A stretch of DNA of 64,000 nt from an uncultured Caulobacterales bacterium (GCA_964342855.1 CAYFIB010000013.1:1352-65351), one strand, 5' to 3'; shown: positions 41,105-60,682, counted from the stretch's first letter. The notes: generated by a model from the letters alone, not told the origin. Translations and numbers: made by a program.

Positions 41105-41124
41105 ACGCGCCACTGCGGCCCGGC

Positions 41125-41457
41125 CTACTCGCCGATATCGATGAAAACGCGGTCGCCGCGAAGTTCGACTGGATAGGTGCGCACGCACCCTTCGTCCGCT
41201 CCGCGCGCGCGGCCGCTCTGCAGATCGATAACCCAGTTATGGAGCGGGCAGGTCACGGCGGTGTCATGAACGATACCCTCCGTGAGCGGTCCCTTCTTGT
41301 GCGGGCACTGGTTGTCGATCGCGTAGAGCGCGCCATCCTGCGCCTTGAAGACGCCGATCTCCCCGTGCGGAACGACCAGACGACGCGCGCCCCGCGCCGG
41401 GATATGCGAGACGTCGCATGCGTCCACCCACCGCCTCTTATGCATCATGCCATCCAT
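41125..41457 (-). CDS. nirD: Nitrite reductase small subunit (Rieske-like)
   Basis: GEIGVFKAQDGALYAIDNQCPHKKGPLTEGIVHDTAVTCPLHNW. Confidence 0.85.
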   Translation of the reverse strand: MDGMMHKRRWVDACDVSHIPARGARRLVVPHGEIGVFKAQDGALYAIDNQCPHKKGPLTEGIVHDTAVTCPLHNWVIDLQSGRARGADEGCVRTYPVELRGDRVFIDIGE

Positions 41458-41459
41458 GC

Positions 41460-45592: not shown

Positions 45593-45605
45593 ACACCTCT
45601 CTCCT

Positions 45606-46763: not shown

Positions 46764-46831
46764 TTCACTGCTCCATCGTCATGTTCGACAGAAAGGATCG
46801 CGCCGCCGCAGCGTCGATCCGTTATCTGATG

Positions 46832-48298
46832 TTATTCAGAGGGCGAAACGACGCCGCCGCCTACAACCTGATCCGCGCCCTTCAGGCCGATATCGAAGTT
46901 TTCGAGATAAGCGTTCGGCTCGCGGCCGTTGAAAACGACCCCGTCGATGAACTCGCTCTGCGGTTCACGATAGCCATCCGTCCCCCATGGGAACGCTGCT
47001 TCTTCAGCGAGATCGTCATCGACCAGAGAGCGCGCCGCCGTAAGGTAGATATCCGGACGGTAGACCTTGCGAGCCACTTCGTCGTACCAGGCGTCCGATT
47101 GCTGTTCGGCGATCTGCCCCCAACGACGCATCTGCGATAGATACCAGACGGCGTCAGAGTAGTATGGATACGTTGCATTATAGCGAAAGAAGACGTTGAA
47201 GTCCGGAATTTCCCGTTTATCGCCTTTTTCGTATTCGAAAGTGCCGGTCATCGAATTGGCGATGACGTCGTAATCGGCGCCAACATATTCGGGCCGCGCC
47301 AGAATCTCCACAGCCTCATGACGATTGGCGTTGTCGTTCTCGTCAAGCCAGATGGCCGCCCGGATGAGCGCTCGAGTGACCGCGAGAACCGTGTTCGGAT
47401 TTTCTTCCGCGAAGTTCGCTGAAAAACCGAAAACCTTTTCAGGATTATCTTTCCAAATCTCATAGTCCGTGATGACCGGAACGCCGACGCCTTTGAAGAC
47501 GGCTTGCTGATTCCATGGCTCGCCCACGCAATAGCCATAAATCGTGCCAGCCTCGAGCGTCGCGGGCATCTGCGGGGGCGGAGTGACGGAAAGCAGCGCC
47601 TCGGCCTGTATCTGTCCGGAAACGTCATCGGGCGAATAGTAGCCCGGGTGAACGCCGCCTGCAGCGAGCCAGTACCGCAGTTCGTAGTTGTGCGTCGAAA
47701 CGGGGAAGACCATGCCCATATTGAACGGGCGCCCTTCATCACGGAACTTCTCAACAACAGGCTTCAGGTGTTCCGCGCCGATAGGATGTACGGGAAACCC
47801 GTCAGGCTGCTTTGGAATGCCGGGCTTCATCACCTCCCAGACTTCATTGGAAACGGTTATTCCGTTACCATTCAGGTCCATGGAGAACGGCGTGATGATA
47901 TGCGCCTCGGTGCCATAACCGATCGTCGCCGCGAGCGGCTGACCGGCAAGCATGTGCGCGCCTTCAAGCTCGCCATCGATCACCCGATCAAGTAGAACTT
48001 TCCAGTTGGCCTGCGGTTCAAGAGTTACGTAGAGCCCTTCGTCTTCGAAGTAGCCCTTCTCATACGCGATCGCGAGGGGCGCCATGTCCGTGAGCTTGAT
48101 GAAGCCGAAGGTCAGATCAGACACCTCAACATCATACTCTGGAAGCTGGACCTCAGATACCGGAACTTCTTTAGACGAGCCGACCTCTTCAGTCGGCGTT
48201 TCACCGCCGCACGCGGCGAGTGTCAGGATCGCGATAATCGCGCGTCCGCTGGAACGGACTGAAAATTTATGCGGGGCGTGTGTGAATGGCGTTGTCAT
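46832..48298 (-). CDS. nrtA: Nitrate ABC transporter substrate-binding lipoprotein (CmpA/NrtA family)
   Basis: Lipobox ILTLAAC. NrtA-like blocks: [46 protein letters not shown]. Confidence 0.8.
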
Positions 48299-48771: not shown

Positions 48772-50772
48772 CTAGGATTGGGTCTCAAATACCCGGACGT
48801 TCACGGAGGCGACATTCCCCTCTCGGTCAACCACGCTGACCTCGTAGAAGCCGACCCCTGCGGGCCGCCATTCCGCGCGACCGCCGACGTCGACGAGCGG
48901 CGCTCCGTTTACATACCAGTTGAGACCGGCGCCGCGACCCGCCAGAACGACCGGGCGACCGCTGGCGCGGTGGAGCGGCAGCTCCGCCCCCTCCGATGGA
49001 AAAACGATGCGCGGGCCCGTGACGGAGCTGACGGCGGCGCTGACCCAAGGCGCCGGCGGCGCGGGGGCGTCCGTTCCTCCGCGTTCGTTGGGCAGAATAT
49101 CGAACAGGCGCCTCAGCAACGGCGCCGCGGCTTCAAGGCCCGTCGCGCCCGGTCGCGGCGTCCCGTCCGCACGACCGACCCAGACCACCACCACGTAGCC
49201 GCCGCCGACGCCCGCGGCCCAGGCGTCCCGAAAACCCCAGGACGTGCCCGTCTTTATGGCGACGCGCGGCCCATCCGCCGACAGGGCCGAGGGCGCGCGG
49301 CCCGACGGCGACGGCGCGTCGATCAGGATGCGGCGCACTTTCGCGGCGGCGGCGTCGCTCATAACGGCGTATCCGTCGCTCTCTCCGCCCTTTTCCGTCC
49401 AATGGAGAGGCGCCGTCGCCCCCTCTCCCGCCAGCGCGGTGTAGAGGAGCGCTAGATCGGACAAGGAAAGCCCCGCCCCGCCGAGGGCGACCGGCAGCCC
49501 CGCGCGTCCGTCCGTTGATGGCGGAAGATCAAGCGGCGCGCCCGCGGCGTCCAGTTGCGCGGCGAAGCGCTCCGCGCCGACGCGGCTGAGGAGATCGACC
49601 GCCGGCACATTGAGGGAATGGCGAAGCGCGTCGCGGGCGGAAAGATCGCCCTGGTGCGTCCGGTCGAAGTTTTCCGGCGCATACGTCCCGAACGCTTCGG
49701 GCCGGTCGTGCAGGGTCGTCTCCGGCGCCGCGACGCCTGCATCAAACGCCATGGCGTAGATGAAGGGTTTGAGCGTGGAGCCCGGCGAGCGCGAGGCCGC
49801 GGTCAGGTCCACCCACCCGCCCGGCCGGTCACGACCCGCCGAGCCGACATGCGCACGCACGGCGCCGCTCGCCGCCTCGACGATCAGCGCCGCCGCCTGC
49901 ACCTCGTCCCCTTCCAGGAGCGCGTGACTGCGGACGATCTCTTCAGCGATGCGCTGAAGGTTCGCGTCGAGCGTGGAGCGGGCTTCGGTTGACGCAGCCT
50001 CAGCGAGGGCGCGTCGGGCGCCAGCGTCGGCCATCTGCGGAAAATCGCGGCGGCGCGGCGCAGGCGCGGAGAGAAGCGCGGCGCGGCTTTCGTCTGTCAG
50101 CATACCGACCGCTGCGAGGCGTTCACCGATGCGCGCCCGGGCGGCGCGGGCCGCATCCGGGCGACGGTCCGGGCGCCGCGCCTCGGGGGCCTGCGGCAAA
50201 GCGATGAGCAGCGCCTCCTCGGCCGGGTCGAGGTCCGCAGGCTCCTTGCCGAAATAAGCGAGGCTTGCGGCGCGCACGCCCTCCAGATTGCCGCCATAGG
50301 GCGTGAGGGTGAGGTAGAGCTCCAATATCTCCCGCTTCGAGAGCCGCGCCTCGATCTGCAGCGCCCGGAGCGCCTCAATGAACTTGGAGCCGATGGTGCG
50401 CGGGCGCGGCTCCAGAAGCCGCGCCGTCTGCATGGTGATGGTTGAAGCGCCCGAGGTGACGCGCCCGGCGCGAACGCCATCCGCCGTCGCGCGCGCGACG
50501 GCGAGCGGGTCGACGCCCCAATGGGAGTAGAAGCGCGCGTCTTCGACAGAGATCAGGCGTTCGATAAACTCCGGATCAAGATCATCGAGTTTCGCGGGGA
50601 GGCGCCAGCGTTGTTCGCTGTTCGAGTAGGCCGCCAGCGGTCGTCCTTCACGATCCAGGACAAGGGAGGAGACGTCCCCCGCCCGTTCGATCGGCGGCGG
50701 GAGCGCGCGGTCGAGGGCGACGACCATCAGGACGACGCCAAGCGCCGCCAGGATCGCGCCTCTCAACCTCAC
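48772..50772 (-). CDS. pbpC: Penicillin-binding protein 1C (transglycosylase/transpeptidase)
   Basis: GT51 motifs (SVEDARFYSHWGVDP, GASTITMQ). Transpeptidase motifs SPGSTLKPF, SLN and KTGTS. BiPBP_C-like C-terminus. Confidence 0.85.
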   Translation of the reverse strand: MRLRGAILAALGVVLMVVALDRALPPPIERAGDVSSLVLDREGRPLAAYSNSEQRWRLPAKLDDLDPEFIERLISVEDARFYSHWGVDPLAVARATADGVRAGRVTSGASTITMQTARLLEPRPRTIGSKFIEALRALQIEARLSKREILELYLTLTPYGGNLEGVRAASLAYFGKEPADLDPAEEALLIALPQAPEARRPDRRPDAARAARARIGERLAAVGMLTDESRAALLSAPAPRRRDFPQMADAGARRALAEAASTEARSTLDANLQRIAEEIVRSHALLEGDEVQAAALIVEAASGAVRAHVGSAGRDRPGGWVDLTAASRSPGSTLKPFIYAMAFDAGVAAPETTLHDRPEAFGTYAPENFDRTHQGDLSARDALRHSLNVPAVDLLSRVGAERFAAQLDAAGAPLDLPPSTDGRAGLPVALGGAGLSLSDLALLYTALAGEGATAPLHWTEKGGESDGYAVMSDAAAAKVRRILIDAPSPSGRAPSALSADGPRVAIKTGTSWGFRDAWAAGVGGGYVVVVWVGRADGTPRPGATGLEAAAPLLRRLFDILPNERGGTDAPAPPAPWVSAAVSSVTGPRIVFPSEGAELPLHRASGRPVVLAGRGAGLNWYVNGAPLVDVGGRAEWRPAGVGFYEVSVVDREGNVASVNVRVFETQS

Positions 50773-50783
50773 GGGTCAGCCTC

Positions 50784-53700
50784 TCACTGCGCGGACGCGA
50801 TGGCGACGCGCCCCGAGGCCGAACGCGCGAAGACCGCCGGACGGTACATGTCCTCCGCCACCGCCCCCGGCATGGCGAAGTCGCCGGGCGTCACCGCACG
50901 GACGAGATAGGCGAGCCGCCGCGGTTCGCCCCGCAGGTCGATGGCCGCGACATAGCGGTCGTCCCGCGCTTCGGCGATCTTTGCGCGATGGAGCACGCCG
51001 GCGAACGCGTAAGGCCCGTCATAGTCCCCGTTCGGATCGGCGCCGTCATTGGGCCCGAGGGTCGTCTCGATCTCGAAGCCCGGCGGCAGAAGATCGGCGA
51101 TGACGATCGGGTGCGTGACGGAATCCTCCGGACGCACCTCGACGACGATCAGCAGCCGGTCGTTCTGGCGCACCTCGGCGAGATCGACCGCCTCGCCCGT
51201 ACGCGAGAGGATGCGCTTGGAGATGGCGAGGCCCGAGGCCGTCGCTTCCGGCGGATCGACCGGGTCGCCCTTGGCCGATACGGTTGCGTAAACCGTTCCG
51301 TTCCCGGCGTTCTGGAACGCCGCGCCGTCATCGAAAGCGGATGCCGAGACCGGCCAGCCCACGATGGGGCCGGACTTGGTCTCCGCCCCGCCCGCGACTT
51401 TCACCGCGCCGGCGCGCGCCAGCATGGCGTCGGCGGCGAGGAGGAGGAACGCCTTCTCCTGCGTGTGCATCATCCGCGCGTCCTTCATGGAGGCGGACAT
51501 GGCCGCGACGAAGCGCTCCGCATACGCCTCCTCCCCGGCTTCCAGCGCGACGGCGACCGCGCCCGCCGCGTCCCGCAGGGAGGACTGGTAATAGTCGTCC
51601 CGGTTCTCATAGCCGAGGGCTTTCTCCGCCAGCGCGAAGGCGGAATTCGCGCGAGCGACGTCGCCCATCATCTTCAGCGCCGCGCCCAGTTGCGCGCGGG
51701 CGAGCGGCGACGGCGTCTTCTTGATCCACGCATCGTGCGCGTAACGCAGGTCCGCGAGGTCCGCCTTGCCTGCGCGGGCGAGGACGTACAGCGAATAGGC
51801 CGCGGCGCGACGGCGGAGATATTCCGTCGAATCCGCCGGCGCCCAGCGCCGGTCGATCCGTGTCTCATAGCCGAGATACGTCCACTGATCGGCGTTGGAG
51901 AGCTCGCGAAGAGAAGCGTACGCCCGTTCCAGCGCCTCATCCGGAACCACGCGGCCGGAAGCTTTGGCTTTCTCAAGGAACTCCACGACATAAGGCGCGA
52001 GCCACGCCGACGCCGCCCGGTCGCCCGCGCGCCACAGACCAAACGCTCCGTCCGTCGTCTGACGGTCGAGGATCTGGTTGACCGCGTCCTGCACCCGCGC
52101 GCGCTCGGCGCGGTCGGGGGCGGCTTCCTTCGCATACGCTGCAAGGCGCTCGGAGAGGAGGAGCGGCATGGCGGAGGAGACGAGCTGCTCCGTGCAGCCG
52201 TAAGGATACGTGTACAGCGAGGCGATGAGCGCCCCCGGCTCGATCCCGGCGAGCGGCGAGAAGGAGACCGAGGCTTCGAGGCTCGACGGGGCGAGCCCCG
52301 CGATCTCGCCGCCCGAGAGCGTCAGGCTCTCCCCGGCGCCGAGCGCGATCGTCCGGGAGCGGCGCTCCGGATACCAGGGCGAGCGGGACTGGATGTCGTA
52401 GCGGCGCGAGACCGCGAAACCCTCCGGCCCCGACACGGAAAGCGCGACCGAACCGAGGCCGACCGGCCCGCCTTCAATCGGCACGGCGGCGGATTTCCGC
52501 TCGCCTTCGTCAAGCGCGAGCGTGCGCGACGCGTCCGCCGCGGCGGCGCCCTCGGCGTCTATCTCGGCTTGATAGTCGCCCGCGGCGCCTTCCACATTGT
52601 CGATGGAGAGCGTCGCCTGCGCGGCGTCCCCCGGCGCGAGGAAACGCGGCAAGATGAGCCGTGCAGGAACTTCATCGCGCACAGTGAGCGGTTCAGCGAG
52701 AGCGCCGAGGGCCGTTTCGCTCCACGCGACGGCCATCAGGCGCAGCTCGCCATTGAAGTCCGGCACGTCGAGGGTGATCTCCGCCTCGCCGTCCTCGCCG
52801 ACATCCACCAGCCCCGAAAAGAGCGCGACGGATTTCTCCGGGACGACCGTCAGCCCCTCCCCGCCGATCTGGTCGCCACCGAACTTGGCGGGCGCGCCGA
52901 GATTGGGATCAAGGAGACGGGAATAGTCATCATAAAGACCGACGCCGAGGCGCTTCTTGCCGAAATACCAGCCTAACGGGTCCGGCGAGGCGTGCTTGGT
53001 CAGCCGCAGGATGCCTTCGTCCACCGCGGCGATGGTGAGGTTCGCGCGTTCGCCCGCCGCGCCTTCGATGCGCACCGGGAGGGTCAATTCTCCGCGCGGG
53101 CGCAGTAGCTCCGGCGCGCCAAGCTCGACCTCCAGCGTGCGCGCGCCCATGTCGAACGGCACATAGGCGACGCCCATGGCGCGCCGCGGCACGGGACGAT
53201 CCGCGGGCGACCGCGGCGTGACGACCGTCGCGAGCACGTAGACGCCCGCGCCCCAGGAGGGGTCCGTCTCGATCTCGATCTCGCGCCCCCGTTCGGACAC
53301 GGAATAGCGCTTCACATCGAGAATGCGGTCCGAGGCGACGACGATCATCGCCTCCCCGGCGTAAGGCGGGCGTAGAGAAAGCGTCACCGTCTCGCCCGGC
53401 TTTACCGGCGTTTCAGGCGCCGTCAGCGTCGCCTCGTCCGGCGCGGCGGCGCCGTCGGCCCAGGAGCGCCAGCCGACCCAGAAGCGTAAGGTTGTCTCCG
53501 CGCCCGTCGCGGGGTCCGTCGCCGTCAGGCGGTAGGTGCCGTAGTCGAGGCGCCGGGTGAGCGACGCTGTTCCATCCTCGGCGGTCTCAATGGAACCTTC
53601 CGACACCGGAAGATCGCGATAGACGCGCCGCCACCGCCACTGGCCGCCGGAGCGGTACCAGTCGAACCAGTAGTCTTCCTCCGTCAGGCGCCAATCGAGA

Positions 53701-55724
53701 TCCCCCGAAACCGGCGCCCCGTCGCGATTGAGGAGAAGAAGATCGATCCCCGCCGGATCATTCGCGCCGACGCTGCGCGCGCCGTCGGAGAGACGCAGGC
53801 CCACATAACGCTCGGCGGCGCGCAGCGGCACGCGGGCGCTTTCGCGCACGGCCCGCCCGCCCGGCTCCAGCGCCGCGACGACGATGTCGGCGCGCAGGGG
53901 CGCCGCGGCGCGGATGTCGCTCTCGATTTCGAGCGGGATCTCCGCGACGCCGTCGCCATCAGTCGTGCGCATGGGCAAGGTGAGGAAACGCTGATCGAAC
54001 CCGCCTTCCAGCGGGCCGAAGCGGTAACCGCGATAGTCCGGGAACGGGTTCGGATCGAGGCGCAGGCGCGCTTCGGATTCGATGGTGAGACCGGAACCCG
54101 GCGCGCCGTAGAGGAACCGAACGTCGGTGCGCAGCGTGCGCGTGTCGCCTGGCTTCAGGGGCGTTTCGTCGTCGGCGTCGAGTTTCACCTCGATGGTCTG
54201 CGGAACGAAATCCTCGACCGAAACGGAGGCGCCGCCAACATAGCCCGCGCCGTCCAATTCGTAGGAGAACCGCCACTCGCCGCGCGGGGCGGATTTCGGC
54301 AGATCGTAGGAAAGCGAGAAGCCGCCGAGATCGAGCCCCGGCGTGCGCAGGCGCGCGGCCTCCGTGCCGTTCGGGCGGGAGATGACGACCGAGCCCGGAC
54401 GATCATCAATGGCGACGCCGAAGGCGTCGCGCACGAGACCGGTGAGGTACACCCGCTCGCCCGGCCGGTAGATGCCGCGATCCGTGTAGAGATAAGCGTC
54501 GAAGTCCCCCGACGCGTATCGACCGCCGACGCCGCGGTCGGAAAGATCAAGCTGCGCGCGGTCGAGATCGAGGGCGGCGAAGTCGGCATCCTTCCCATAG
54601 GCCATGACCATGCGCGCGCGATCCGGGCCGGAGCCGCGGACGAGGGATTCAGCAAACCGTACGAGGCCGTCGCCGTCCGTCGCGGCCGTGTCGAGAATGT
54701 CGTTGTTGGCGGCGATGAGTTCGACCTTCACGCCGGAAACGGGTTTCGCGGTTTTAAGCGACCTTGCGACGACCATGAGGCCGTCCGTGCCCTGATAGGT
54801 GGTGAGCGCAAGATCGGTGAAGAGGATCCACCGCCAGGCGCGCGCGGCGTCGCCCTCCTCCACGCCTTCTGAGGCGTCGGCGAGCTCGACGAAATAGGCG
54901 CCCGGCTCGAAGCTTTCGAGGGCCGCGCCGAGCGGGAAGACGGTCGTCGCGGCGACATTGCGCTCGCCGTCCACGTCGAATTCGCCTTCATAGACGATAA
55001 CGCCGACATCGCGGCCGTTCTCGCGCTCAGGCGCGTAGAAATAATCGTCCTCATCGAGCGTGCGGCCTTCGACAATGGCGCGCTGGGCGAGGATGCGGTC
55101 GCCGACACGGCGTACCCGCACGCGCAACCGGTCGATGTTCACGGTTTCGACGCCGAGACCGTCCGCATCCGTCCGTGGCAGGATGACCCCATCGCCGGCG
55201 AACGCGACGTAGGCCGGCTTGTCGCCAAAGGAGATGGAGACCGTTTCGCCGCGGGCGAGGGTTTCGCCGTCCGCCGCTGGAAGACCGGCGCGCACGGTGG
55301 CGCGATAGTCGCGGTCGAATTCAAGGCCGGTGAGGCAGAGCTTCTCGCCCTCCGCCGTCGCCGCGGCCCGCGGCGCGCCCTCCACCGAGACATAGTCCGT
55401 ATAGGCGACAGAGCCGTCCTTCACGAGCTTGCGCGAGAAAACGAGGCAGGCCTTGGGCGCCGCGCCCGAAGTGTCCGTCTCCATCCGGATGAGCTGAAAG
55501 CCTTCGGTCGCCTCACGCGCCGGACGCGGGGCGCCGTCGCGGCGCGGCTCGCGCCAGCGGGCGTTCGGGTCGCTCGCATCAGCGCTGCGCGCGTCATCGG
55601 CGCGCGGCGTCCCCTCGCCCGTCAACAGCCCGGTAAGTTCCGTGTGGGTTCCGACGACGACCCCGCCCGCGAAGGCGGCGGCGAGCGCGACGACGGGAAC
55701 GACGAGGCGGATGATCCAGGACAT
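50784..55724 (-). CDS. Bacterial alpha-2-macroglobulin family protein (YfhM/ECAM-like) with an intact thioester motif
   Basis: 1646 aa with an N-terminal membrane anchor. Thioester site YPYGCTEQLVSS. The gene is 11 nt upstream of pbpC. Confidence 0.9.
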   Translation of the reverse strand: MSWIIRLVVPVVALAAAFAGGVVVGTHTELTGLLTGEGTPRADDARSADASDPNARWREPRRDGAPRPAREATEGFQLIRMETDTSGAAPKACLVFSRKLVKDGSVAYTDYVSVEGAPRAAATAEGEKLCLTGLEFDRDYRATVRAGLPAADGETLARGETVSISFGDKPAYVAFAGDGVILPRTDADGLGVETVNIDRLRVRVRRVGDRILAQRAIVEGRTLDEDDYFYAPERENGRDVGVIVYEGEFDVDGERNVAATTVFPLGAALESFEPGAYFVELADASEGVEEGDAARAWRWILFTDLALTTYQGTDGLMVVARSLKTAKPVSGVKVELIAANNDILDTAATDGDGLVRFAESLVRGSGPDRARMVMAYGKDADFAALDLDRAQLDLSDRGVGGRYASGDFDAYLYTDRGIYRPGERVYLTGLVRDAFGVAIDDRPGSVVISRPNGTEAARLRTPGLDLGGFSLSYDLPKSAPRGEWRFSYELDGAGYVGGASVSVEDFVPQTIEVKLDADDETPLKPGDTRTLRTDVRFLYGAPGSGLTIESEARLRLDPNPFPDYRGYRFGPLEGGFDQRFLTLPMRTTDGDGVAEIPLEIESDIRAAAPLRADIVVAALEPGGRAVRESARVPLRAAERYVGLRLSDGARSVGANDPAGIDLLLLNRDGAPVSGDLDWRLTEEDYWFDWYRSGGQWRWRRVYRDLPVSEGSIETAEDGTASLTRRLDYGTYRLTATDPATGAETTLRFWVGWRSWADGAAAPDEATLTAPETPVKPGETVTLSLRPPYAGEAMIVVASDRILDVKRYSVSERGREIEIETDPSWGAGVYVLATVVTPRSPADRPVPRRAMGVAYVPFDMGARTLEVELGAPELLRPRGELTLPVRIEGAAGERANLTIAAVDEGILRLTKHASPDPLGWYFGKKRLGVGLYDDYSRLLDPNLGAPAKFGGDQIGGEGLTVVPEKSVALFSGLVDVGEDGEAEITLDVPDFNGELRLMAVAWSETALGALAEPLTVRDEVPARLILPRFLAPGDAAQATLSIDNVEGAAGDYQAEIDAEGAAAADASRTLALDEGERKSAAVPIEGGPVGLGSVALSVSGPEGFAVSRRYDIQSRSPWYPERRSRTIALGAGESLTLSGGEIAGLAPSSLEASVSFSPLAGIEPGALIASLYTYPYGCTEQLVSSAMPLLLSERLAAYAKEAAPDRAERARVQDAVNQILDRQTTDGAFGLWRAGDRAASAWLAPYVVEFLEKAKASGRVVPDEALERAYASLRELSNADQWTYLGYETRIDRRWAPADSTEYLRRRAAAYSLYVLARAGKADLADLRYAHDAWIKKTPSPLARAQLGAALKMMGDVARANSAFALAEKALGYENRDDYYQSSLRDAAGAVAVALEAGEEAYAERFVAAMSASMKDARMMHTQEKAFLLLAADAMLARAGAVKVAGGAETKSGPIVGWPVSASAFDDGAAFQNAGNGTVYATVSAKGDPVDPPEATASGLAISKRILSRTGEAVDLAEVRQNDRLLIVVEVRPEDSVTHPIVIADLLPPGFEIETTLGPNDGADPNGDYDGPYAFAGVLHRAKIAEARDDRYVAAIDLRGEPRRLAYLVRAVTPGDFAMPGAVAEDMYRPAVFARSASGRVAIASAQ

Positions 55725-55921
55725 GGCGTGCGCGGCGGCCGTTTTGGCCGCTCCCCTTTTTCAGCGCCCGTCGGACGCGCTTCGTTTGGTTCAGGAAATC
55801 GCGGCGGCGTGGCGCGAATACGGCCTGATCGCGACGCCCCCGTCCGCAATTCCTCCCCTGATCGACAAGGTTAAATTGCGGGAGCCGCTGCGGCAATCGC
55901 ACGCGAAGCGCCTGATATCAC

Positions 55922-56386
55922 TCAGAAGTTGGCGACGCGGCGACAGTGGGTGAGCGGGTATTGCGGCCGATCACCCGGCCAGACGCCGGTCAGCGTTCGG
56001 AAGTCAAAAAGCTCGATGCGGCGACTGTCGAGATAGCGCGGGGCGTTGATGATCCGCCCGTTTGCGTCCCGATAGACGGCGACGCGGCGCCGGGCCGTCA
56101 CCTTGCCGTCGGTGAACCGGCAGGCGTCGTAAATGAATTCCCCGCCGCCGCCCGGCTGACGACCATCGCAGAAATTGATCGACCAGTATTTGGCGTGGGT
56201 GAATTTCACCGTCGCGGGCGCGGCGTCGCTTACCTGCACGTAAGCGGCGTCCCCGCCAAGGGCCGCTGTGTTCTCCAGACTGCAGAAATAGGTGCGCGTG
56301 CCGTATGCGGTGCTTTCAGCGGCGGATGCCGATGCTGGAGCGAGGGCGAGGAGCAACGCGACGGCCAGCATTTCCTCCCCCTTCAT
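55922..56386 (-). CDS. Small secreted 4-Cys protein of unknown function
   Basis: Signal peptide MLAVALLLALAPASASA. Four Cys in the mature part. The start is 56386 or 56371. Last gene of the caspase operon. Confidence 0.5.
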   Translation of the reverse strand: MKGEEMLAVALLLALAPASASAAESTAYGTRTYFCSLENTAALGGDAAYVQVSDAAPATVKFTHAKYWSINFCDGRQPGGGGEFIYDACRFTDGKVTARRRVAVYRDANGRIINAPRYLDSRRIELFDFRTLTGVWPGDRPQYPLTHCRRVANF

Positions 56387-56400
56387 TCACGCGGCGTCGC

Positions 56401-57537
56401 TCAGTCCACGCAGGCCCACGGACGGATCTGACAGTTCGGGATCTCCACAACCGGCTTGCCCGCAAGATAGGCCGGATAGCCGAGATTGCCGCGCGTCCAC
56501 GGAATTTGCTCGTCAAACGGCGCCGGGCCGCCGCCGAACTGGTCGCGATACTCCGCGGCGCAGGTGTTGTAGTCGGCCTTCATGGCCTGAATCGTCCGTG
56601 TCAGAACGCTGACGATGTCCTGCTTGATGCGCAGCTCGGCCTGAAAGTGCTGGGCGAACGGGCCGAGCGACCCGCCGGACTTTTTCCGTCGGGCGGCGAC
56701 GCAGGGGGAGTCGCTCGCCGACTGGTTCGGGCCCGTCGAATAGATGATCATCGTGTCACGGAATGTCGGCATGACGGCGAGGCCCTTGCGCTCGCTGTTC
56801 AGCGGAATGCGGCGGTCTTCCAGGCTGCCGCCGGAGGTGACGACCTCGTATTCGGAGATGTCGAACGCCCGTTGCCGCGGCCGCTGCAACGCGTCCGGAT
56901 AAACCGAGTTGATCTCCGCGTCCTGTTCTTCGGAGAAGACCGAGGTCGGCGCGTCGCGGCAGGCGTCCAGCACGTAAACGATGCCGGCTTTGGCGCGCTC
57001 GCGCAGACCGGCGAGGAGTTCGGAAGAGCGGAAGACCTGAATTTCTTCGCCGTCCTTCACGTCCGGAACGAGGAAGTTTTCGTTCTCGAACTGAAATCCG
57101 TGTCCGGCGAAATAGAAAAAAACCGTCGGGTAGACGGGGCGCTCATCGGCGCGGCCGGGCAGATTGCGCAGGCGCGCGGCTTTTTCCTCCGCCGCCCGGT
57201 TGGCCGCCTCGATCGCGTCGCCGAAGAGGCGCAACTCTTCCTTGAAGTAGAAGACGTTCTTGTTGTCGGCGCGCCGCACCGTATCGAACTTGTTCGAGAG
57301 CTTCAGCGCCCGGCTGCCGCTCGCCCCCCGCAGGGATGAGACGACGGCGTTCATGTCGTTATCGGTGTTGTTGAGATCGCTGATGCGGGCGTTCTCTTTA
57401 TACGTATTGCCCATCACCAGCGCGACGAACGGCGTCGCGGTGAAGGACGGGTCCGAGGCGCAGGAGGATGCAAGCCCGGCGCCCGCGCCGGCGGCGCCCA
57501 GCATCAGGGCGCGTCGTGTGAGACGATGATCGGTCAC
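56401..57537 (-). CDS. Exported caspase-family (peptidase C14) protein, Tat signal plus a lipobox-like site
   Basis: GTG start preceded by GAGGA. Twin-arginine signal TRRALMLGAAGAGAGLASSC. Catalytic His block VFFYFAGHGFQ and Cys block IVYVLDACRD. A p10-like segment MIIYSTGPNQSASD. Confidence 0.75.
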   Translation of the reverse strand: MTDHRLTRRALMLGAAGAGAGLASSCASDPSFTATPFVALVMGNTYKENARISDLNNTDNDMNAVVSSLRGASGSRALKLSNKFDTVRRADNKNVFYFKEELRLFGDAIEAANRAAEEKAARLRNLPGRADERPVYPTVFFYFAGHGFQFENENFLVPDVKDGEEIQVFRSSELLAGLRERAKAGIVYVLDACRDAPTSVFSEEQDAEINSVYPDALQRPRQRAFDISEYEVVTSGGSLEDRRIPLNSERKGLAVMPTFRDTMIIYSTGPNQSASDSPCVAARRKKSGGSLGPFAQHFQAELRIKQDIVSVLTRTIQAMKADYNTCAAEYRDQFGGGPAPFDEQIPWTRGNLGYPAYLAGKPVVEIPNCQIRPWACVD

Positions 57538-57541
57538 GGGA

Positions 57542-59461
57542 CTAATTCCTCAGGGCGTCAATGAGTTTGATGGCGGCGTCGTAGTGAACGCGATTGGCGG
57601 CGGGCGCGGCGTCGCGATCCGCCCGGATCAACTTCTTGATATCGGACGTGCTCTCGGTCGGCTTCCGGCGCAGATAGAACATGGCGAGTTCATAGCCTTC
57701 GTCGTCGCAACCGCGGCGCAGATCGAGGGCCCAATAAACGCGCGAGCCCTGCTGACGCTTGTCGAGAATGCAGCGCTCGTCCGGGTTTTCGCGATACCAG
57801 ATGATGGCGCGAAGATCGTTGATCGCCGGGCCGACGAAGTCTTCGTGGCCCAGATCGACGACGACTTCCGGGCTCGTCGTATCGATGGTCTGGAAGTGAA
57901 CGTCCGCCAGCGGCGGCGCGCCGTCGCCCGCGCGTTTCTGCGCCGTCAGCAGGCGCAGGAACGAACCGCCGGCGCCGCCGCCGACGAAGGTTTTCGCCGC
58001 GTTCAGATATTTCGAGGCGCGCAGAGCCTGATCGCTGCGCGAGGCGTACAGCGTGAGACGGTCCGCATGCGAAGCGATGCGCGAGGTTTTGGCGACGAAG
58101 TCTCCACGTGCGACGTCCGGCGAGGCGAAGATCACCTCGTTGAACGTCTTGCCGGTCAGCTGCCCGCGGTCCTTCATGCGGTTGAGCGCGGCCAGCAGAT
58201 ATTCGTTGCCCATGGAGTGCGCGATGACGTGGACCCGCTCCGCCCCACTCTGACGCAGCATGATGTTGATGTATTCCACCAGCCCGTCGAGGACGAAGTT
58301 GTTCGAGATCAACGCCCGGTCTTCCGAGTACGCATAAAGAGAACCGCCAGACGGCCACGAATACATGGCGACCGCGCCGTTGCCGACATTGTCGAGACCG
58401 ACCTTGAGGGTCGCCGCCCGCTCCAGCGCCTGCCGGAAGGTCTGGTTGTAGCCGTGCACGAAGAGGATGAGCTCTTTGCGGTTGGAAGAGCGGATTTCCT
58501 CCTGCAGCGAGGCGACGAAGGAGTTGCGGCTGTAAGAGGTGATCGACTCGATGATGAGATCATCGCCCGAGCCGTCGCCGCGGAGCGAGAACACCAGTTC
58601 GTTCGGCCGCGCTATGCCCGTCGGGTCGTCGAGAATTTTCGTCGGCACGTTGATCGAGATGACGCCGACATCAAGCGATTCGCTCAGTTCCGAGCCATAC
58701 GGATTGTTCACGTCGTGCAGCGTGCTCGCCTGACGGTTCGTGCCGTAGAACACCTTCACCAGCTTGTGGGTGTTGGAGCCGCGGCGCGCGAGACGGGCCG
58801 TCTCCGGCGCTTCGGCGGGCGCCTGCAGCTCCAGCTCGCTGCGCAGCTCGGCGTTGATGTTCTCCGAAATCCAGATGTTGACGGCCAGGCGCACATCGTT
58901 GCTCAACTGTTTGCGGAGGATTTCCCGCTCGAAGTCGAGATAGGCCTTGCCGTGCGGCGCGGCTGAAAGCGCCGCCGTTTCCGCGTCCTGCCCGCGCCGG
59001 AACGCCCGGTCGATCAGGTATCCGCGCAGCTTGAAGTCCAGCGCGTTGACGTAGGAGCCCTCTTCCGCGAGCAGCCGGGCCATATCGTCGATCAGCTCAA
59101 GATCGTCGTTCAGCGAGGTGCGTTTCGGCTGCGCCAGTCGGTCGAGCTTGTAGGCCTCGTTCAGGATATCGAGCGCGCGGGAGACGTCGCCGCGCCCCTC
59201 CTGAGCTTCGGCGAGGGCGATCAGCATCGCCCGTCCCTCGATCGAGTCATAGGTCGAGCGGTCGCTTTCGCCGAGGGCGACGAGCTTGGCCGCCGCCGCT
59301 TCGATCTTGATATTGGTCGGCGCGGCGAGCGCGAGGCTCACTTCCATCCACAGCGCGTCGCTTGCGGACGTTTGCGCCATCGCGCCGCCGGCTGCGAACG
59401 AAACGCCGGCGAAAGCGCCCAGCGCGGCGGCCCGAAGGCGGGTGAAAAAGCGGTCCATCAT
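57542..59461 (-). CDS. Secreted protein: helical TPR-like N-domain plus a DUF900-type alpha/beta hydrolase
   Basis: Sec signal ...AAGGAMAQ. DUF900 pattern LILFVHGYNQTF...AMYSWPSGGSLYAY...RVHVIAHSMGNEYLLAAL (GxSxG-type nucleophile elbow HSMG). Confidence 0.75.
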   Translation of the reverse strand: MMDRFFTRLRAAALGAFAGVSFAAGGAMAQTSASDALWMEVSLALAAPTNIKIEAAAAKLVALGESDRSTYDSIEGRAMLIALAEAQEGRGDVSRALDILNEAYKLDRLAQPKRTSLNDDLELIDDMARLLAEEGSYVNALDFKLRGYLIDRAFRRGQDAETAALSAAPHGKAYLDFEREILRKQLSNDVRLAVNIWISENINAELRSELELQAPAEAPETARLARRGSNTHKLVKVFYGTNRQASTLHDVNNPYGSELSESLDVGVISINVPTKILDDPTGIARPNELVFSLRGDGSGDDLIIESITSYSRNSFVASLQEEIRSSNRKELILFVHGYNQTFRQALERAATLKVGLDNVGNGAVAMYSWPSGGSLYAYSEDRALISNNFVLDGLVEYINIMLRQSGAERVHVIAHSMGNEYLLAALNRMKDRGQLTGKTFNEVIFASPDVARGDFVAKTSRIASHADRLTLYASRSDQALRASKYLNAAKTFVGGGAGGSFLRLLTAQKRAGDGAPPLADVHFQTIDTTSPEVVVDLGHEDFVGPAINDLRAIIWYRENPDERCILDKRQQGSRVYWALDLRRGCDDEGYELAMFYLRRKPTESTSDIKKLIRADRDAAPAANRVHYDAAIKLIDALRN

Positions 59462-59501
59462 GGTTTCTCCCAGTCTGGCGCGTCCGCCCCGACGCGGAAG
59501 A

Positions 59502-60569
59502 TCAGTACAGCAGATAGCCGAGGCGGAACGAAATTCCCTGTACGGTCTGGTTGCTTCCCACCAGAGCCGTTTCCGAAAGCGGCGAGTAATTGGTCAGGCG
59601 GTAGACAAGGTCCGCGCGCCATTTGCGCCGCCAGGTGCTTGTCACGCCGACGCTGACATCGATGCCGACCAGCCACTCGTCGCTGAAGAACGCGCTGTCC
59701 GAACGGTCGCCGATGACGCCGCCGACTTCGTCCTGCGCGAAGGCATCGCGGTAGCCGCCCGCAAGCAGGAAGTTGGCGAAGCCCTCGGTCGCCCGGTTTG
59801 GCGTGACCGGCACTTTGATTTCAAGGCCGGTACGCGCCGTGTAGAGATCGTACGCCTCAAGACGCGAGCCGGATGCGGGCGTGCGCGTCTCGGTCGGCGT
59901 CAGCGGGTCCGGCCCGGTGAAATCGAAAAGCGTGTCATAGGTCGCGGTGTCGATCCGCACGCGTTCGTAGCGCCCGGAGACGACCAGCGCGACGACGTCG
60001 CCGAGCGCGCGGGTCTTCGCGTCCAGCTCGAAATCATAGCGCCGCATCTTCGCGTCGGTGACGCGCTCCAGCGCCTGACCGGTCGAAAAATCGCCGCCGC
60101 GCTGGATGATCTCCGTATCGCCCTCGCCGAAGCCGATGGTGAGATTGAACGTCGTCTGACGAAGAAACGCGCTTGGCGCGCGCAAGGTGAACACGCCGCC
60201 GTTCATGATGAAGGCGTAGGGCTCGCCGCGCGAGGTGAGATCGAACTCGCTGTCCGTGCGCACGGTGCCGAGGGAGAAGCTGTCCTGCACGCCCCAGGTC
60301 TTGAAAGAAGCGCCGACCAGCCAACCGACATCGCTGCCCGCAAGCGCTTCGTACTCATCCTCGGCGCGGACATCGTCCTGCTCGGCGATGTCCGTCTCAT
60401 CCTCGGCGTGAACAACGTCCTGCTCGGCGATGTCCGTGCGAAGAGAGATCGGCGTCGGGCCCGTCTGCTGCGCAAGCGCTGGAGACGCGGCGACAGACAC
60501 GCAGAGAGCGCTCGCGGCTGTCGCCGCAATCGTCGTCGTCCCGCTCAAAAATCCCCGTAGGCCCGCCAT
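59502..60569 (-). CDS. Outer-membrane beta-barrel protein with an acidic N-terminal tandem repeat
   Basis: Signal peptide ...VAASPALAQQ, alternating amphipathic strands, and a C-terminal beta-signal-like ISFRLGYLLY. Confidence 0.55.
   Translation of the reverse strand: MAGLRGFLSGTTTIAATAASALCVSVAASPALAQQTGPTPISLRTDIAEQDVVHAEDETDIAEQDDVRAEDEYEALAGSDVGWLVGASFKTWGVQDSFSLGTVRTDSEFDLTSRGEPYAFIMNGGVFTLRAPSAFLRQTTFNLTIGFGEGDTEIIQRGGDFSTGQALERVTDAKMRRYDFELDAKTRALGDVVALVVSGRYERVRIDTATYDTLFDFTGPDPLTPTETRTPASGSRLEAYDLYTARTGLEIKVPVTPNRATEGFANFLLAGGYRDAFAQDEVGGVIGDRSDSAFFSDEWLVGIDVSVGVTSTWRRKWRADLVYRLTNYSPLSETALVGSNQTVQGISFRLGYLLY
60354..60437 (-). repeat. 42-bp tandem duplication (2 copies, 39/42 identical) inside the OM barrel gene
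   Basis: Encodes TDIAEQDVVHAEDE / TDIAEQDDVRAEDE. Confidence 0.85.
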
Positions 60570-60682
60570 ACGCGCCTCCCTCTCCCGTCATGTGAAAGTG
60601 CCCGCAGCGCCGCGCGAAAGCAAGGATCGTATCGCGACAGATCGGTGACGGTCGGTAAGAATACGCCGTCTCGCAGGAGCCG

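What the first reader, a model, noticed from the sequence alone, without database searches (positions are those of the whole stretch)
55922..60569. Four-gene operon of exclusively exported proteins: OM barrel - helical/DUF900 hydrolase - Tat-lipoprotein caspase - small 4-Cys protein
Seen in sequence: four minus-strand genes are separated by only 40, 4 and 14 nt. Every product carries an N-terminal export signal: OM barrel ...SPALAQQ; hydrolase ...GGAMAQ; caspase twin-arginine TRRALMLGAAG... ending in LASSC; small protein ...APASASA. The caspase has both catalytic blocks (FFYFAGHGF, VYVLDACRD) and a p10-like segment. The hydrolase has the DUF900 pattern with an HSMG nucleophile elbow behind a ~300-aa helical domain. 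Established knowledge: bacterial C14 (ortho/metacaspase-like) proteins are mostly cytoplasmic and often occur in NTPase/TPR/WD40 conflict modules, and DUF900 has no assigned function. Inference: this looks like a dedicated cell-envelope proteolytic/esterolytic module with its own outer-membrane component, and the small disulfide-type protein could be a substrate, inhibitor or chaperone. Tat export would suit a protease that must fold or dimerise before export. I know of no described system with this composition. Possible roles are envelope remodelling, surface or OMV cargo processing, interbacterial or predator defence, or envelope-targeted suicide.
Basis: partly seen in the sequence, partly recalled or inferred. 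Interest (0 to 1): 0.75.

Follow-up and report, generated by a model that had tools for sequence, protein, structure and literature searches.

The report
Outer-membrane barrel paired with exported caspase-like protease
A rare outer-membrane barrel protein sits next to a lipid-anchored, exported caspase-like protease in several distant bacterial lineages, and in this genome a secreted serine hydrolase and a small cysteine-containing protein have joined them; no such cell-envelope module has been described and its function is unknown.

Summary
Four tightly spaced minus-strand genes at 55922-60569 encode a signal-peptide beta-barrel, a DUF900 Ser-Asp-His hydrolase, a twin-arginine/lipobox Peptidase_C14 protein with an intact His-Cys dyad, and a small 4-Cys secreted protein.

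The unit is not a conserved four-gene operon.
- **Conserved core:** the barrel plus the lipoprotein caspase homologue. The barrel family is very rare: 9 hits among 1.84 billion representatives. In the three distant lineages (24-29% identity) with enough flanking DNA, a C14 lipoprotein of the same subfamily lies next to the barrel, in three different gene arrangements.
- **DUF900:** found only in the window's clade and one sister clade. Its next-closest relatives lie elsewhere, without caspase or barrel.
- **Small protein:** found only in near-identical strains.

An AlphaFold model (pLDDT 76) is a roughly 10-stranded barrel closest in shape to omptins, but the family has no invariant histidine. 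The caspase subfamily is closest to the MALT1 paracaspase and keeps the acidic pocket residues, which suggests cleavage after Arg/Lys.

My best reading is an outer-membrane-anchored protease docked to its barrel partner, with a variable second exported hydrolase (DUF900 here, trypsin-DUF4384 elsewhere). The mechanism is inferred. I found no description of this pairing.

The parts
59502..60569 (-). Outer-membrane beta-barrel protein (355 aa). It has a signal peptide ending ALA|QQ, an acidic N-terminal extension (aa ~35-80) and a ~10-stranded barrel (aa ~84-354) ending in ...GYLLY. This is the conserved partner of the caspase-like lipoprotein.
   Evidence: ORF. There is no Pfam or NCBIfam hit. 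An exhaustive profile search finds only 9 relatives among 1.84e9 representatives; the 8 distant ones have signal peptides and 7 of the 8 end in a terminal Phe (mostly ...RF). The family profile hits NspA (E 0.0066), and 6 of 10 members weakly hit PF13505 OMP_b-brl. The AF2 model built on 10 sequences has pLDDT 76 and pTM 0.69 and is all-beta over aa 84-354. Foldseek top hits are all outer-membrane barrels, best to Pla/OmpT/pOmpT with target-normalised TM (TMt) 0.5-0.6.
60354..60437 (-). A 42-bp x 2 tandem duplication inside the barrel gene. It encodes the acidic repeat TDIAEQD(V/D)V(H/R)AEDE in the N-terminal extension and varies between strains.
   Evidence: TRF finds period 42, 2.0 copies, 92% matches. 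The barrel variant P0030 (90% identical in alignment A7; 341 aa) has one copy, and the 69% orthologue has none.
57542..59461 (-). Secreted DUF900 alpha/beta hydrolase (639 aa). It has a Sec signal (AMA|Q), a ~200-aa N-terminal extra domain with weak TPR hints, and a DUF900 domain with the catalytic triad Ser416 (HSMG), Asp449 and His539. It also has a clade-specific insertion at aa ~487-509 and a C-terminal Cys pair (564, 585). This gene is a clade-specific addition to the core.
   Evidence: Pfam PF05990 4.7e-37. S416, D449 and H539 are invariant in 16 aligned homologues. The orthologue in L001 is 52% identical over the full length. A GGGAGAA Shine-Dalgarno site lies before the ATG. The N-domain gives only sub-threshold TPR_14/TPR_12 hits.
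56401..57537 (-). Twin-arginine lipoprotein Peptidase_C14 (378 aa), a paracaspase-like cysteine protease. It has the Tat motif TRRALM, the lipobox LASS|C26, a short 10-residue tether, and the catalytic residues His146 (FAGHGF) and Cys193 (LDACRD). Asp61 and Asp191 are acidic S1-pocket candidates. Four further Cys (279, 326, 369, 376) are present.
   Evidence: Pfam PF00656 2.4e-18. The Tat motif plus lipobox are conserved in the 42% orthologue. The subfamily profile is closest to the MALT1 paracaspase (1.4e-7), with GHG and D-x-C-R aligned. A GAGGA Shine-Dalgarno site lies 9 nt before the GTG and overlaps the end of the DUF900 gene.
55922..56371 (-). Small secreted 4-Cys protein (149 aa from the Shine-Dalgarno-supported ATG, or 154 aa from 56386). 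It has no detectable family. It is a strain/species-level accessory gene, probably co-transcribed.
   Evidence: ORF. The SD site GGGGGAGGAA precedes the second ATG. Only the 149-aa form is in the protein collection, in a cluster with 2 variants. In a variant the mature part is 94% identical while the signal peptide diverges. It is absent from L001. There is no Pfam or PDB match.
60570..60682 (-). The 113-nt intergenic region between the thioesterase stop and the barrel start. It presumably holds the operon's promoter, and a GGGAGAGGGAGG Shine-Dalgarno site precedes the ATG.
   Evidence: Sequence. No sigma-70 consensus match was found, so the promoter is inferred only.

Best explanation
The locus encodes an outer-membrane-associated hydrolytic module.

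Conserved core: a rare, roughly 10-stranded, closed (non-pore) outer-membrane beta-barrel and a lipid-anchored caspase-fold cysteine protease (C14, paracaspase-like, probably cutting after Arg/Lys). The protease is tethered by only 10-12 residues, so its catalytic domain is held against the outer membrane. I propose that the barrel is its membrane docking or positioning partner.

In the window's clade the protease is exported folded through Tat. A secreted DUF900 Ser-Asp-His hydrolase (esterase/lipase, possibly phospholipase A-like) has been inserted between the two core genes and is probably translationally coupled to the protease.

Another lineage has a secreted trypsin-DUF4384 protease immediately upstream of the C14 gene, as DUF900 is here. 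From this I infer that the second hydrolase is an exchangeable partner. The protease either processes or activates it, or the two work together on envelope-proximal or extracellular protein and lipid substrates.

The small 4-Cys protein is a recent accessory of unknown role.

Shown: gene content, catalytic residues, export signals, barrel fold, and recurrent barrel-C14 adjacency. Inferred: physical docking, Arg/Lys specificity, any processing of the second hydrolase, and the physiological role.
For: - **Domains and catalytic residues:**
- **Export signals conserved in orthologues:**
- **Barrel identity:**
- **Recurrent adjacency:** the barrel family has only 9 members at E<=1e-3 among 1.84e9 representatives. 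Three distant relatives have enough flanking DNA to judge, and all three have a C14 gene next door in a different arrangement. These are L010 barrel->C14 (55-nt gap; lipobox LTAC), L011 C14->barrel (the partial upstream gene starts LDACRNNPF), and L014-16 barrel convergent with trypsin-DUF4384->C14.
- **Same C14 subfamily:** the barrel-linked C14s align with the window caspase over nearly its full length at 65-88 bits. The best unlinked C14 found in the 5.8-billion-protein search scored 43 bits.
- **Chance estimate:** with about 0.5 caspase homologues per genome (671 in 1463 genomes, PMC3501461), chance adjacency is roughly 3e-4 per lineage. This is my own rough estimate.
- **Likely co-expression:** short gaps, Shine-Dalgarno sites and the GAGGA site inside the end of the DUF900 gene; no terminator-like sites in the gaps between the four genes.
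- **Paracaspase-like pocket:**
- **Exported second hydrolase in L015:** signal peptide, Trypsin 1e-42 and DUF4384.
- **Closed anchor rather than pore:** the invariant charged residues (R177/D179/E181, R200/E202, R246, D304, D320/R324) alternate along strands in the periplasm-proximal half. Length variation falls in and around the extracellular loops (44 inserted alignment columns in the loops and 40 in the long strands, none in the periplasmic turns).
Against:
- The barrel model has moderate confidence, and the strand count comes from the DSSP string only.
- Only five lineages are known, and two short contigs (L012, L013) show no adjacent C14.
- DUF900 is absent from the distant loci, so its coupling to the protease rests on two related clades. 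These also share the surrounding synteny (DksA ... thioesterase), so the arrangement could simply be inherited.
- The L001 barrel ends in ...RLIG, not in an aromatic residue.
- Arg/Lys specificity is inferred from alignment to MALT1 and from my memory of its pocket residues.
- The link from DUF900 to phospholipase activity is remote and rests on one preprint about an archaeal enzyme.
Confidence: 0.45

Rival explanations
1. The barrel is a dedicated surface-exposure or secretion device. It brings the lipoprotein protease, the DUF900 hydrolase or both to the cell surface or into vesicles, as Slam does for surface lipoproteins or as RcsF is threaded through OmpA/C/F. The module then acts outside the cell in nutrient scavenging or antagonism.
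For: The barrel and lipoprotein are always adjacent. The long strands and omptin-like shape suggest a barrel that protrudes from the surface. Secreted DUF900-type enzymes can kill other cells. The extracellular loops vary, as expected for surface-exposed parts.
Against: A ~10-stranded barrel with a lumen lined by conserved alternating charged residues is too narrow to pass a folded 35-kDa domain (inference). The lipoprotein tether is only 10-12 residues, which is too short for RcsF-type threading. There is no POTRA, TPR or DUF560-like domain.
Confidence: 0.17
2. The module is an envelope-targeted suicide or defence system. Phage attack or envelope damage activates the caspase-like protease. 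It then unleashes the DUF900 lipase on the cell's own membranes.
For: Caspase-fold proteases and lipases are common effectors in bacterial conflict systems (established knowledge). There is a weak PADLOC caspase-domain hit (E 1.4e-6).
Against: There is no sensor, NTPase or other known defence component, and no PADLOC system match. The locus sits in a stable housekeeping neighbourhood (DksA, thioesterase, A2M-PbpC, nitrate assimilation) that is syntenic between genera. It shows no island features and no marked GC deviation from its neighbours. It does not occur in viral contigs.
Confidence: 0.1
3. The genes are independent exported proteins that merely lie together, and the tight spacing reflects compact genome organisation. 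The barrel, hydrolase, protease and small protein have unrelated functions.
For: DUF900 relatives occur without caspase or barrel. The small protein is not conserved. The two clades that share the trio also share the flanking synteny.
Against: Barrel-C14 adjacency is retained across about 25% identity in three different gene orders, which is hard to explain by inheritance alone. The 4-nt gap, with the Shine-Dalgarno site inside the upstream gene, suggests coupled translation of DUF900 and C14.
Confidence: 0.08
4. The module works with the alpha-2-macroglobulin/PbpC pair immediately downstream. The caspase-like protease is either the endogenous target or activator of the periplasmic protease trap, or part of a peptidoglycan repair circuit.
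For: A2M (50784-55724) starts 197 nt after the small gene on the same strand and is followed by PbpC. A2M carries the thioester motif CTEQ (sequence).
Against: The adjacency exists only in the window lineage. In L001 a convergent S41 peptidase follows the caspase, and L010 and L014-16 have no A2M. A2M-PbpC is a widespread self-contained pair (established knowledge).
Confidence: 0.05

Closest known systems
MALT1-type paracaspases and bacterial orthocaspases/metacaspases (Peptidase family C14B)
   Same: The caspase fold and the His-Cys dyad in the GHG and D-x-C-R motifs are shared. Acidic residues align with MALT1 D365 and D462, which implies basic P1 specificity. MALT1 is the best solved-structure match for the subfamily profile (1.4e-7).
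   Different: This protein is exported (Tat here, no twin-arginine motif in distant relatives) and lipid-anchored with a 10-12-residue tether. It has no death, Ig, NTPase, TPR or WD40 domains and is paired with an outer-membrane barrel. Its activity has not been tested.
Exported prokaryotic caspase homologues as catalogued by Asplund-Samuelsson et al. 2012 (PMC3501461) and Klemencic et al. 2019 (PMC6426788)
   Same: About 15% of prokaryotic caspase homologues have N-terminal TM or signal segments. A Tat-like signal has been proposed for cyanobacterial pseudo-orthocaspases. Alphaproteobacterial trypsin-p20(QC)-DUF4384 fusions are known. In L014-16 a trypsin-DUF4384 gene sits next to the C14 gene.
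   Different: Neither paper, in the passages I read, describes a dedicated barrel partner or DUF900 linkage. The dyad here is the canonical His-Cys, not a pseudo-variant.
DUF900 (PF05990) hydrolases, including ~600-aa lipoprotein relatives and the archaeal phospholipase 'cinquedea' (bioRxiv 10.64898/2026.06.10.730825)
   Same: The HSMG nucleophile elbow and the Ser-Asp-His triad are invariant, and the proteins are exported. The closest relatives share the same layout of N-terminal extra domain, DUF900 domain and C-terminal Cys pair.
   Different: The relatives are lipoproteins located beside an Lnt-like CN_hydrolase, a two-component system and PlsC-type acyltransferases, with no caspase or barrel. 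The window protein has a Sec type-I signal and a clade-specific insertion. Homology to cinquedea itself was not tested.
Omptins (OmpT, Pla; Peptidase A26), 10-stranded long outer-membrane barrels
   Same: These are the best Foldseek matches (E 1.6e-8, target-normalised TM 0.5-0.6) and have similar long strands.
   Different: Identity is 9-12%, there is no Omptin Pfam hit, and the family has no invariant His. This is a resemblance in shape, not family membership.
Outer-membrane barrel plus tethered enzyme pairs: PorV-PorU of the type IX secretion attachment complex (a clan CD peptidase held on a barrel), MipA-MltA, and LptD-LptE (from my own knowledge, not tested here)
   Same: The logic matches: a beta-barrel encoded or assembled with an outer-membrane-associated hydrolase or lipoprotein. 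PorU is also a clan CD cysteine peptidase.
   Different: There is no sequence relationship. The barrel sizes differ (PorV 14 strands, LptD 26), the phyla differ, and no T9SS genes are present. The comparison is an analogy only.

Membership tests
Peptidase_C14 (PF00656), caspase/paracaspase/metacaspase fold | Profile match above the curated threshold | tested here: met
   67.1 bits against a cut-off of 21.4, E 2.4e-18, aa 38-347. Partner C14s in L010 and L015 score 1.4e-25 and 2.2e-28.
Peptidase_C14 (PF00656), caspase/paracaspase/metacaspase fold | Catalytic His-Cys dyad in conserved motifs | tested here: met
   His146 (FAGHGF) and Cys193 (LDACRD) are conserved in all full-length subfamily members. 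D-A-C-R is invariant in five sequences.
Peptidase_C14 (PF00656), caspase/paracaspase/metacaspase fold | Proteolytic activity and P1 specificity | not testable with these tools
   Only inferred. Asp61 and Asp191 align with MALT1 Asp365 and Asp462 (plus my knowledge of the MALT1 pocket).
DUF900 (PF05990) alpha/beta hydrolase | Profile match above the curated threshold | tested here: met
   128.1 bits against a cut-off of 20.5, E 4.7e-37.
DUF900 (PF05990) alpha/beta hydrolase | Nucleophile elbow and Ser-Asp-His triad | tested here: met
   H415-S416-M417-G418, D449 and G538-H539 are invariant in 16 homologues.
Outer-membrane beta-barrel (OMP_b-brl clan) | N-terminal signal peptide and C-terminal aromatic beta-signal | tested here: inconclusive
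   A signal-like N-terminus is present in all members. The window protein ends ...GYLLY and 7 of the 8 distant members end in Phe (mostly ...RF), but the L001 orthologue ends ...RLIG. SignalP was not available.
Outer-membrane beta-barrel (OMP_b-brl clan) | Closed antiparallel barrel fold | tested here: met
   The AF2 model has pLDDT 76 and pTM 0.69 and is all-beta over aa 84-354. 125 Foldseek hits have E<=1e-3, and all 50 hits listed are outer-membrane barrels or complexes containing them. The family profile hits NspA at E 0.0066.
Outer-membrane beta-barrel (OMP_b-brl clan) | Pfam profile match (PF13505) | tested here: inconclusive
   The window protein has no hit. Six of 10 family members have weak hits, the best at E 1.3e-4.
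Omptin (Peptidase A26) | Omptin profile match and conserved Asp/Asp plus Asp/His catalytic pairs | tested here: not met
   There is no Omptin Pfam hit, and the 10-sequence family alignment has no invariant His. Only the fold is similar.
Tat-exported lipoprotein | Twin-arginine consensus (S/T-R-R-x-F/L-L) followed by a weakly hydrophobic h-region | tested here: met
   TRRALM in the window and SRRALL in L001. It is absent from the L010 and L014 partners, so it is clade-specific. Actual Tat dependence cannot be tested here.
Tat-exported lipoprotein | Lipobox with invariant Cys | tested here: met
   LASS|C (window), GLAS|C (L001) and WLTA|C (L010). L014 has the less canonical APVA|C. The residue at +2 is Ala or Gln, which under the E. 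coli rule means outer-membrane sorting (inference).
Known anti-phage defence systems (PADLOC-DB) | Match of the components to a catalogued system | tested here: not met
   The only hit is a weak generic caspase-domain match (E 1.4e-6). The other three proteins have no hit.
   The trio without the small gene occurs in L001, and barrel plus DUF900 (cut at the contig end) in L007. Barrel + C14 only occurs in L010 and L011, and barrel + C14 with trypsin-DUF4384 in L014-16.

The most novel reading that the evidence does not exclude
The barrel and the paracaspase-like lipoprotein form a previously undescribed outer-membrane protease complex. It works as an extracytoplasmic caspase-type activation switch. 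The membrane-held protease cleaves after basic residues to activate an exchangeable co-exported effector hydrolase at the cell envelope or surface. That effector is a DUF900 lipase/phospholipase here and a trypsin-DUF4384 protease elsewhere. The purpose would be antagonism, predation defence or envelope remodelling.
Probability: 0.2. Interest if true: 0.8.

Novelty: new variant of a known kind. Interest (0 to 1): 0.58.

Why it matters
Bacterial caspase homologues are studied almost entirely as cytoplasmic death or defence effectors. As far as I know, none of the exported ones has a defined function or partner.

A caspase-fold lipoprotein that keeps a dedicated, very rare outer-membrane barrel beside it across deep divergence gives a concrete two-protein system to test. 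It would show what a caspase-type protease does outside the cytoplasm.

The swap of the neighbouring serine hydrolase (DUF900 here, trypsin-DUF4384 elsewhere) suggests a modular arrangement of protease plus effector. It also offers a genomic handle on DUF900, which remains largely uncharacterised.

One barrel-family member is in a cultured Sphingobium terrigena strain. Genetics may therefore be feasible, although I could not check that its neighbourhood holds a C14 gene.

Tried and rejected
1. **AF2 on the barrel with 2 sequences** failed (pLDDT 31). It was repeated with 10 sequences.
2. **Genome-collection scan with the barrel alignment** returned only the already known sister MAG.
3. **Two metagenome scans.** The caspase alignment gave nothing. 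The distant-barrel alignment gave one false positive: L009 is a large unrelated protein with a chance GYDLFSGRGG match.
4. **Viral contig scans** with two barrel alignments gave nothing.
5. **tblastn of the Sphingobium barrel against plasmids** gave no match.
6. **Sequence searches of solved structures** with the barrel pair, the DUF900 protein and the small protein gave nothing useful.
7. **NCBIfam** gave no informative names.
8. **Promoter and terminator scan** found no sigma-70 match. The only terminator-like hits lie inside coding sequence.
9. **Omptin-type protease idea for the barrel** was rejected, because there is no profile hit and no invariant His.
10. **Functional link to the A2M-PbpC pair downstream** was rejected as a core feature, because the adjacency is not conserved.
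11. **Conserved periplasmic turns as a docking surface** were not supported. Turn conservation (0.39) is about the same as loop conservation (0.37). Only fixed turn lengths and a conserved membrane-embedded core stand out.
12. **Literature searches** for periplasmic, secreted or lipoprotein caspases found no relevant paper.

Full report
**Observation**

| Gene | Coordinates | Length |
|---|---|---|
| Barrel candidate | 59502-60569 | 355 aa |
| DUF900 hydrolase | 57542-59461 | 639 aa |
| Caspase homologue | 56401-57537 | 378 aa, GTG start |
| Small protein | 55922-56386 | 154 aa |

The gaps are 40, 4 and 14 nt, and all quoted motifs are present. Pfam gives DUF900 at 4.7e-37 (aa 313-489) and Peptidase_C14 at 2.4e-18 (aa 38-347). 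The barrel and the small protein have no family.

Each gene has a Shine-Dalgarno site. GAGGA lies 9 nt before the caspase GTG, inside the last codons of the DUF900 gene, so translational coupling is plausible. The small gene most likely starts at the second ATG (56371, 149 aa). GGGGGAGGAA lies just before that ATG, and only the 149-aa form is in the protein collection. No terminator-like site lies in the gaps between the four genes.

**Export signals**

The barrel, DUF900 and small proteins have hydrophobic N-terminal cores and Ala-x-Ala sites. The cytoplasmic thioesterase next door does not.

The caspase has TRRALM followed by a weakly hydrophobic stretch and the lipobox LASS|C. The 42%-identical orthologue in a MAG (L001) has SRRALL and GLAS|C, so both features are conserved. 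The residue after the lipid-modified Cys is Ala, which under the E. coli sorting rule means the outer membrane. This is an inference. Only about 10 residues separate the Cys from the first strand of the caspase fold, so the domain is held close to the membrane.

**Catalytic competence**

- In the caspase, His146 (FAGHGF) and Cys193 (LDACRD) are conserved in every full-length relative.
- A profile of the subfamily matches the MALT1 paracaspase best among solved structures (1.4e-7, against 0.036 for metacaspases). Asp61 and Asp191 align with MALT1 Asp365 and Asp462. From my knowledge these line the Arg-binding pocket, so cleavage after Arg/Lys is likely, but this is inferred.
- In the DUF900 protein, HSMG (Ser416), Asp449 and His539 are invariant in 16 homologues.
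- Family-wide conservation starts near residue 234. The extra N-terminal domain is therefore about 200 residues, and it gives only sub-threshold TPR hints.

**The barrel**

Word-based searches found only an identical copy and one 69% orthologue. An exhaustive HMMER search of 1.84 billion representatives found just 9 proteins at E<=1e-3. Eight of them are distant (24-27% identity, 281-338 aa), with signal peptides, and seven of the eight end in a terminal Phe, mostly ...RF.

The family profile hits NspA (E 0.0066), and 6 of 10 members weakly hit OMP_b-brl. AlphaFold failed with two sequences (pLDDT 31). With ten it gave pLDDT 76 and pTM 0.69, with residues 84-354 forming about ten long strands.

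Every listed Foldseek match is an outer-membrane barrel or a complex containing one. The best by TM-score are the 10-stranded omptins Pla, OmpT and pOmpT (target-normalised TM 0.5-0.6, 9-12% identity). The family has no invariant histidine and no omptin profile hit, so it is omptin-shaped but not an omptin.

The invariant residues are mostly alternating charged residues in the periplasm-proximal half of the strands, while length variation falls in and around the extracellular loops and none in the periplasmic turns. This fits a closed anchor-type barrel rather than a pore.

**What is conserved**

| Lineage | Arrangement |
|---|---|
| Window strain and close relatives (L002, L008; 87-100% identical) | barrel - DUF900 - C14 (L008 ends inside C14); small gene also in L002 |
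| Sister clade (L001) | DksA ... thioesterase - barrel - DUF900 - C14, then a convergent S41 peptidase; no small gene, no A2M |
| L007 (same sister clade) | thioesterase - barrel - DUF900, cut at the contig end |
| L010 (distant barrel P0038) | barrel, 55 nt, C14 lipoprotein (lipobox LTAC) |
| L011 (P0041) | partial gene starting LDACRNNPF with the caspase C-terminal motifs, then barrel |
| L014-16 (P0046) | barrel convergent with an operon of exported trypsin-DUF4384 protease followed by a C14 lipoprotein |

The sister clade is 69%, 52% and 42% identical to the window for the barrel, DUF900 and C14 proteins. The window clade and the sister clade share the flanking synteny, so their agreement alone is weak evidence.

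The decisive evidence comes from the distant barrels. Two further contigs (L012, L013) are short and show no adjacent C14.

The barrel-linked C14s align with the window caspase over nearly its full length at 65-88 bits. The best unlinked C14 in the large protein search scored 43 bits. So barrel and caspase lipoprotein have stayed together across about 25% identity and through three gene orders. Given about 0.5 caspase homologues per genome, chance is an unlikely explanation.

By contrast, the next-closest DUF900 proteins (35-39% identical) are lipoproteins with the same domain layout. They sit beside an Lnt-like CN_hydrolase, a two-component system and acyltransferases, with no caspase or barrel.

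**Context**

- The locus lies in an ordinary chromosomal neighbourhood: DksA, thioesterase, A2M-PbpC and nitrate assimilation genes.
- GC content (0.64) is close to that of the neighbouring stretches.
- There is no defence-system match.
- It does not occur in viral contigs.
- The A2M-PbpC pair directly downstream is not adjacent in any other lineage, so I treat it as incidental.

**Interpretation**

The best-supported reading is an outer-membrane-associated protease module. Its core is the barrel plus the short-tethered paracaspase-like lipoprotein. A variable second exported serine hydrolase sits immediately upstream of the C14 gene: DUF900 in the window clade, trypsin-DUF4384 in L014-16.

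I propose that the barrel docks or positions the protease. The protease would then process the second hydrolase or cooperate with it on envelope-proximal or external substrates.

Only the anatomy and the gene linkage are shown. Docking, specificity, processing and physiological role are all inferences.

Rival readings, with the weight I give each:
- a surface-display role for the barrel (0.17)
- envelope suicide or defence (0.10)
- unrelated neighbouring genes (0.08)
- an A2M-linked circuit (0.05)

**Comparison with what is known**

Exported prokaryotic caspase homologues are recognised as a class (PMC3501461). Tat-like signals on pseudo-orthocaspases and trypsin-p20-DUF4384 fusions have also been noted (PMC6426788).

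A 2024 classification of alpha/beta hydrolases lists DUF900 as a family of unknown function (PMC11878206). A 2026 preprint shows phospholipase A activity for a secreted archaeal enzyme, and 69% of its archaeal homologues match DUF900.

I found no paper describing a barrel-caspase lipoprotein pair or a C14-DUF900 operon. The nearest functional analogies are PorV-PorU and MipA-MltA. These come from my own knowledge and were not tested here.

**Verdict**

The real unit is a rare two-gene core with lineage-specific additions. It is a new variant of a known kind: an exported caspase homologue with a dedicated outer-membrane partner. Interest is moderate to high (0.58), limited by rarity and the lack of any functional data.

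Noticed in passing
window 48772-55724 (minus strand): A bacterial alpha-2-macroglobulin gene (1646 aa, thioester motif CTEQ at Cys1177, N-terminal TM/signal but no lipobox) is followed by PbpC (Transgly + Transpeptidase + BiPBP_C). It starts 197 nt downstream of the small gene on the same strand. A periplasmic protease trap next to an exported protease operon is suggestive, but the adjacency is seen only in this lineage.
   Followed up: partly
window 60354-60437: A 42-bp x 2 tandem duplication (92% match) encodes an acidic 14-residue repeat in the barrel's N-terminal extension. A close strain variant (P0030, 90% identical in alignment A7) has one copy and the sister clade has none, so this segment varies between strains.
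   Followed up: yes
L004 6382-12412, L005 2278-9280, L006 3705-8059: The next-closest DUF900 proteins are ~600-620-aa lipoproteins. They lie directly after a two-component system and a 516-aa CN_hydrolase (Lnt-like), and next to PlsC-type acyltransferases and a rhomboid gene. This context hints at a lipid or lipoprotein-related role for this DUF900 branch.
   Followed up: no
L014 1890-4261, L015 1394-3954: An exported trypsin-like protease with a C-terminal DUF4384 domain sits directly upstream of the barrel-linked C14 lipoprotein. This resembles the trypsin-p20-DUF4384 fusion proteins reported in alphaproteobacteria (PMC6426788).
   Followed up: partly
L001 11167-12807: In the sister clade an S41 peptidase with a lipobox (AVG|C) lies convergent to the caspase gene, 38 nt from its end, where the small gene and A2M lie in the window.
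   Followed up: no
window 55922-56371, protein residues ~81-84: The small secreted protein contains the tetrapeptide DACR, identical to the caspase active-site motif (LDACRD), and an Arg-rich stretch (TARRRVAVYRD...RYLDSRR). The match is probably chance, but the Arg-rich stretch would offer many sites to an Arg-specific protease.
   Followed up: no
window 55734-55752: A GC-rich hairpin (GGCGGCCGTTTTGGCCGCT) lies 9 nt upstream of the A2M start codon. Its T-run is on the plus strand, where no gene ends, so it is not a terminator for the four-gene cluster.
   Followed up: no
L010 2388-2912: An IS6-family-like transposase ORF lies about 570 nt downstream of the barrel-C14 pair in this metagenome contig, so the pair may be near mobile DNA in that lineage.
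   Followed up: no
window 38432-48298: A nitrate/nitrite assimilation cluster lies downstream: a molybdopterin nitrate reductase, a NirB-type nitrite reductase and NrtABC-like transporter genes. This confirms an ordinary chromosomal setting.
   Followed up: partly
protein cluster of P0040: The barrel family includes a protein from cultured Sphingobium terrigena (WP_182914100.1 / RJG50725.1, on a 9.2-kb contig). It would be the obvious experimental entry point.
   Followed up: no
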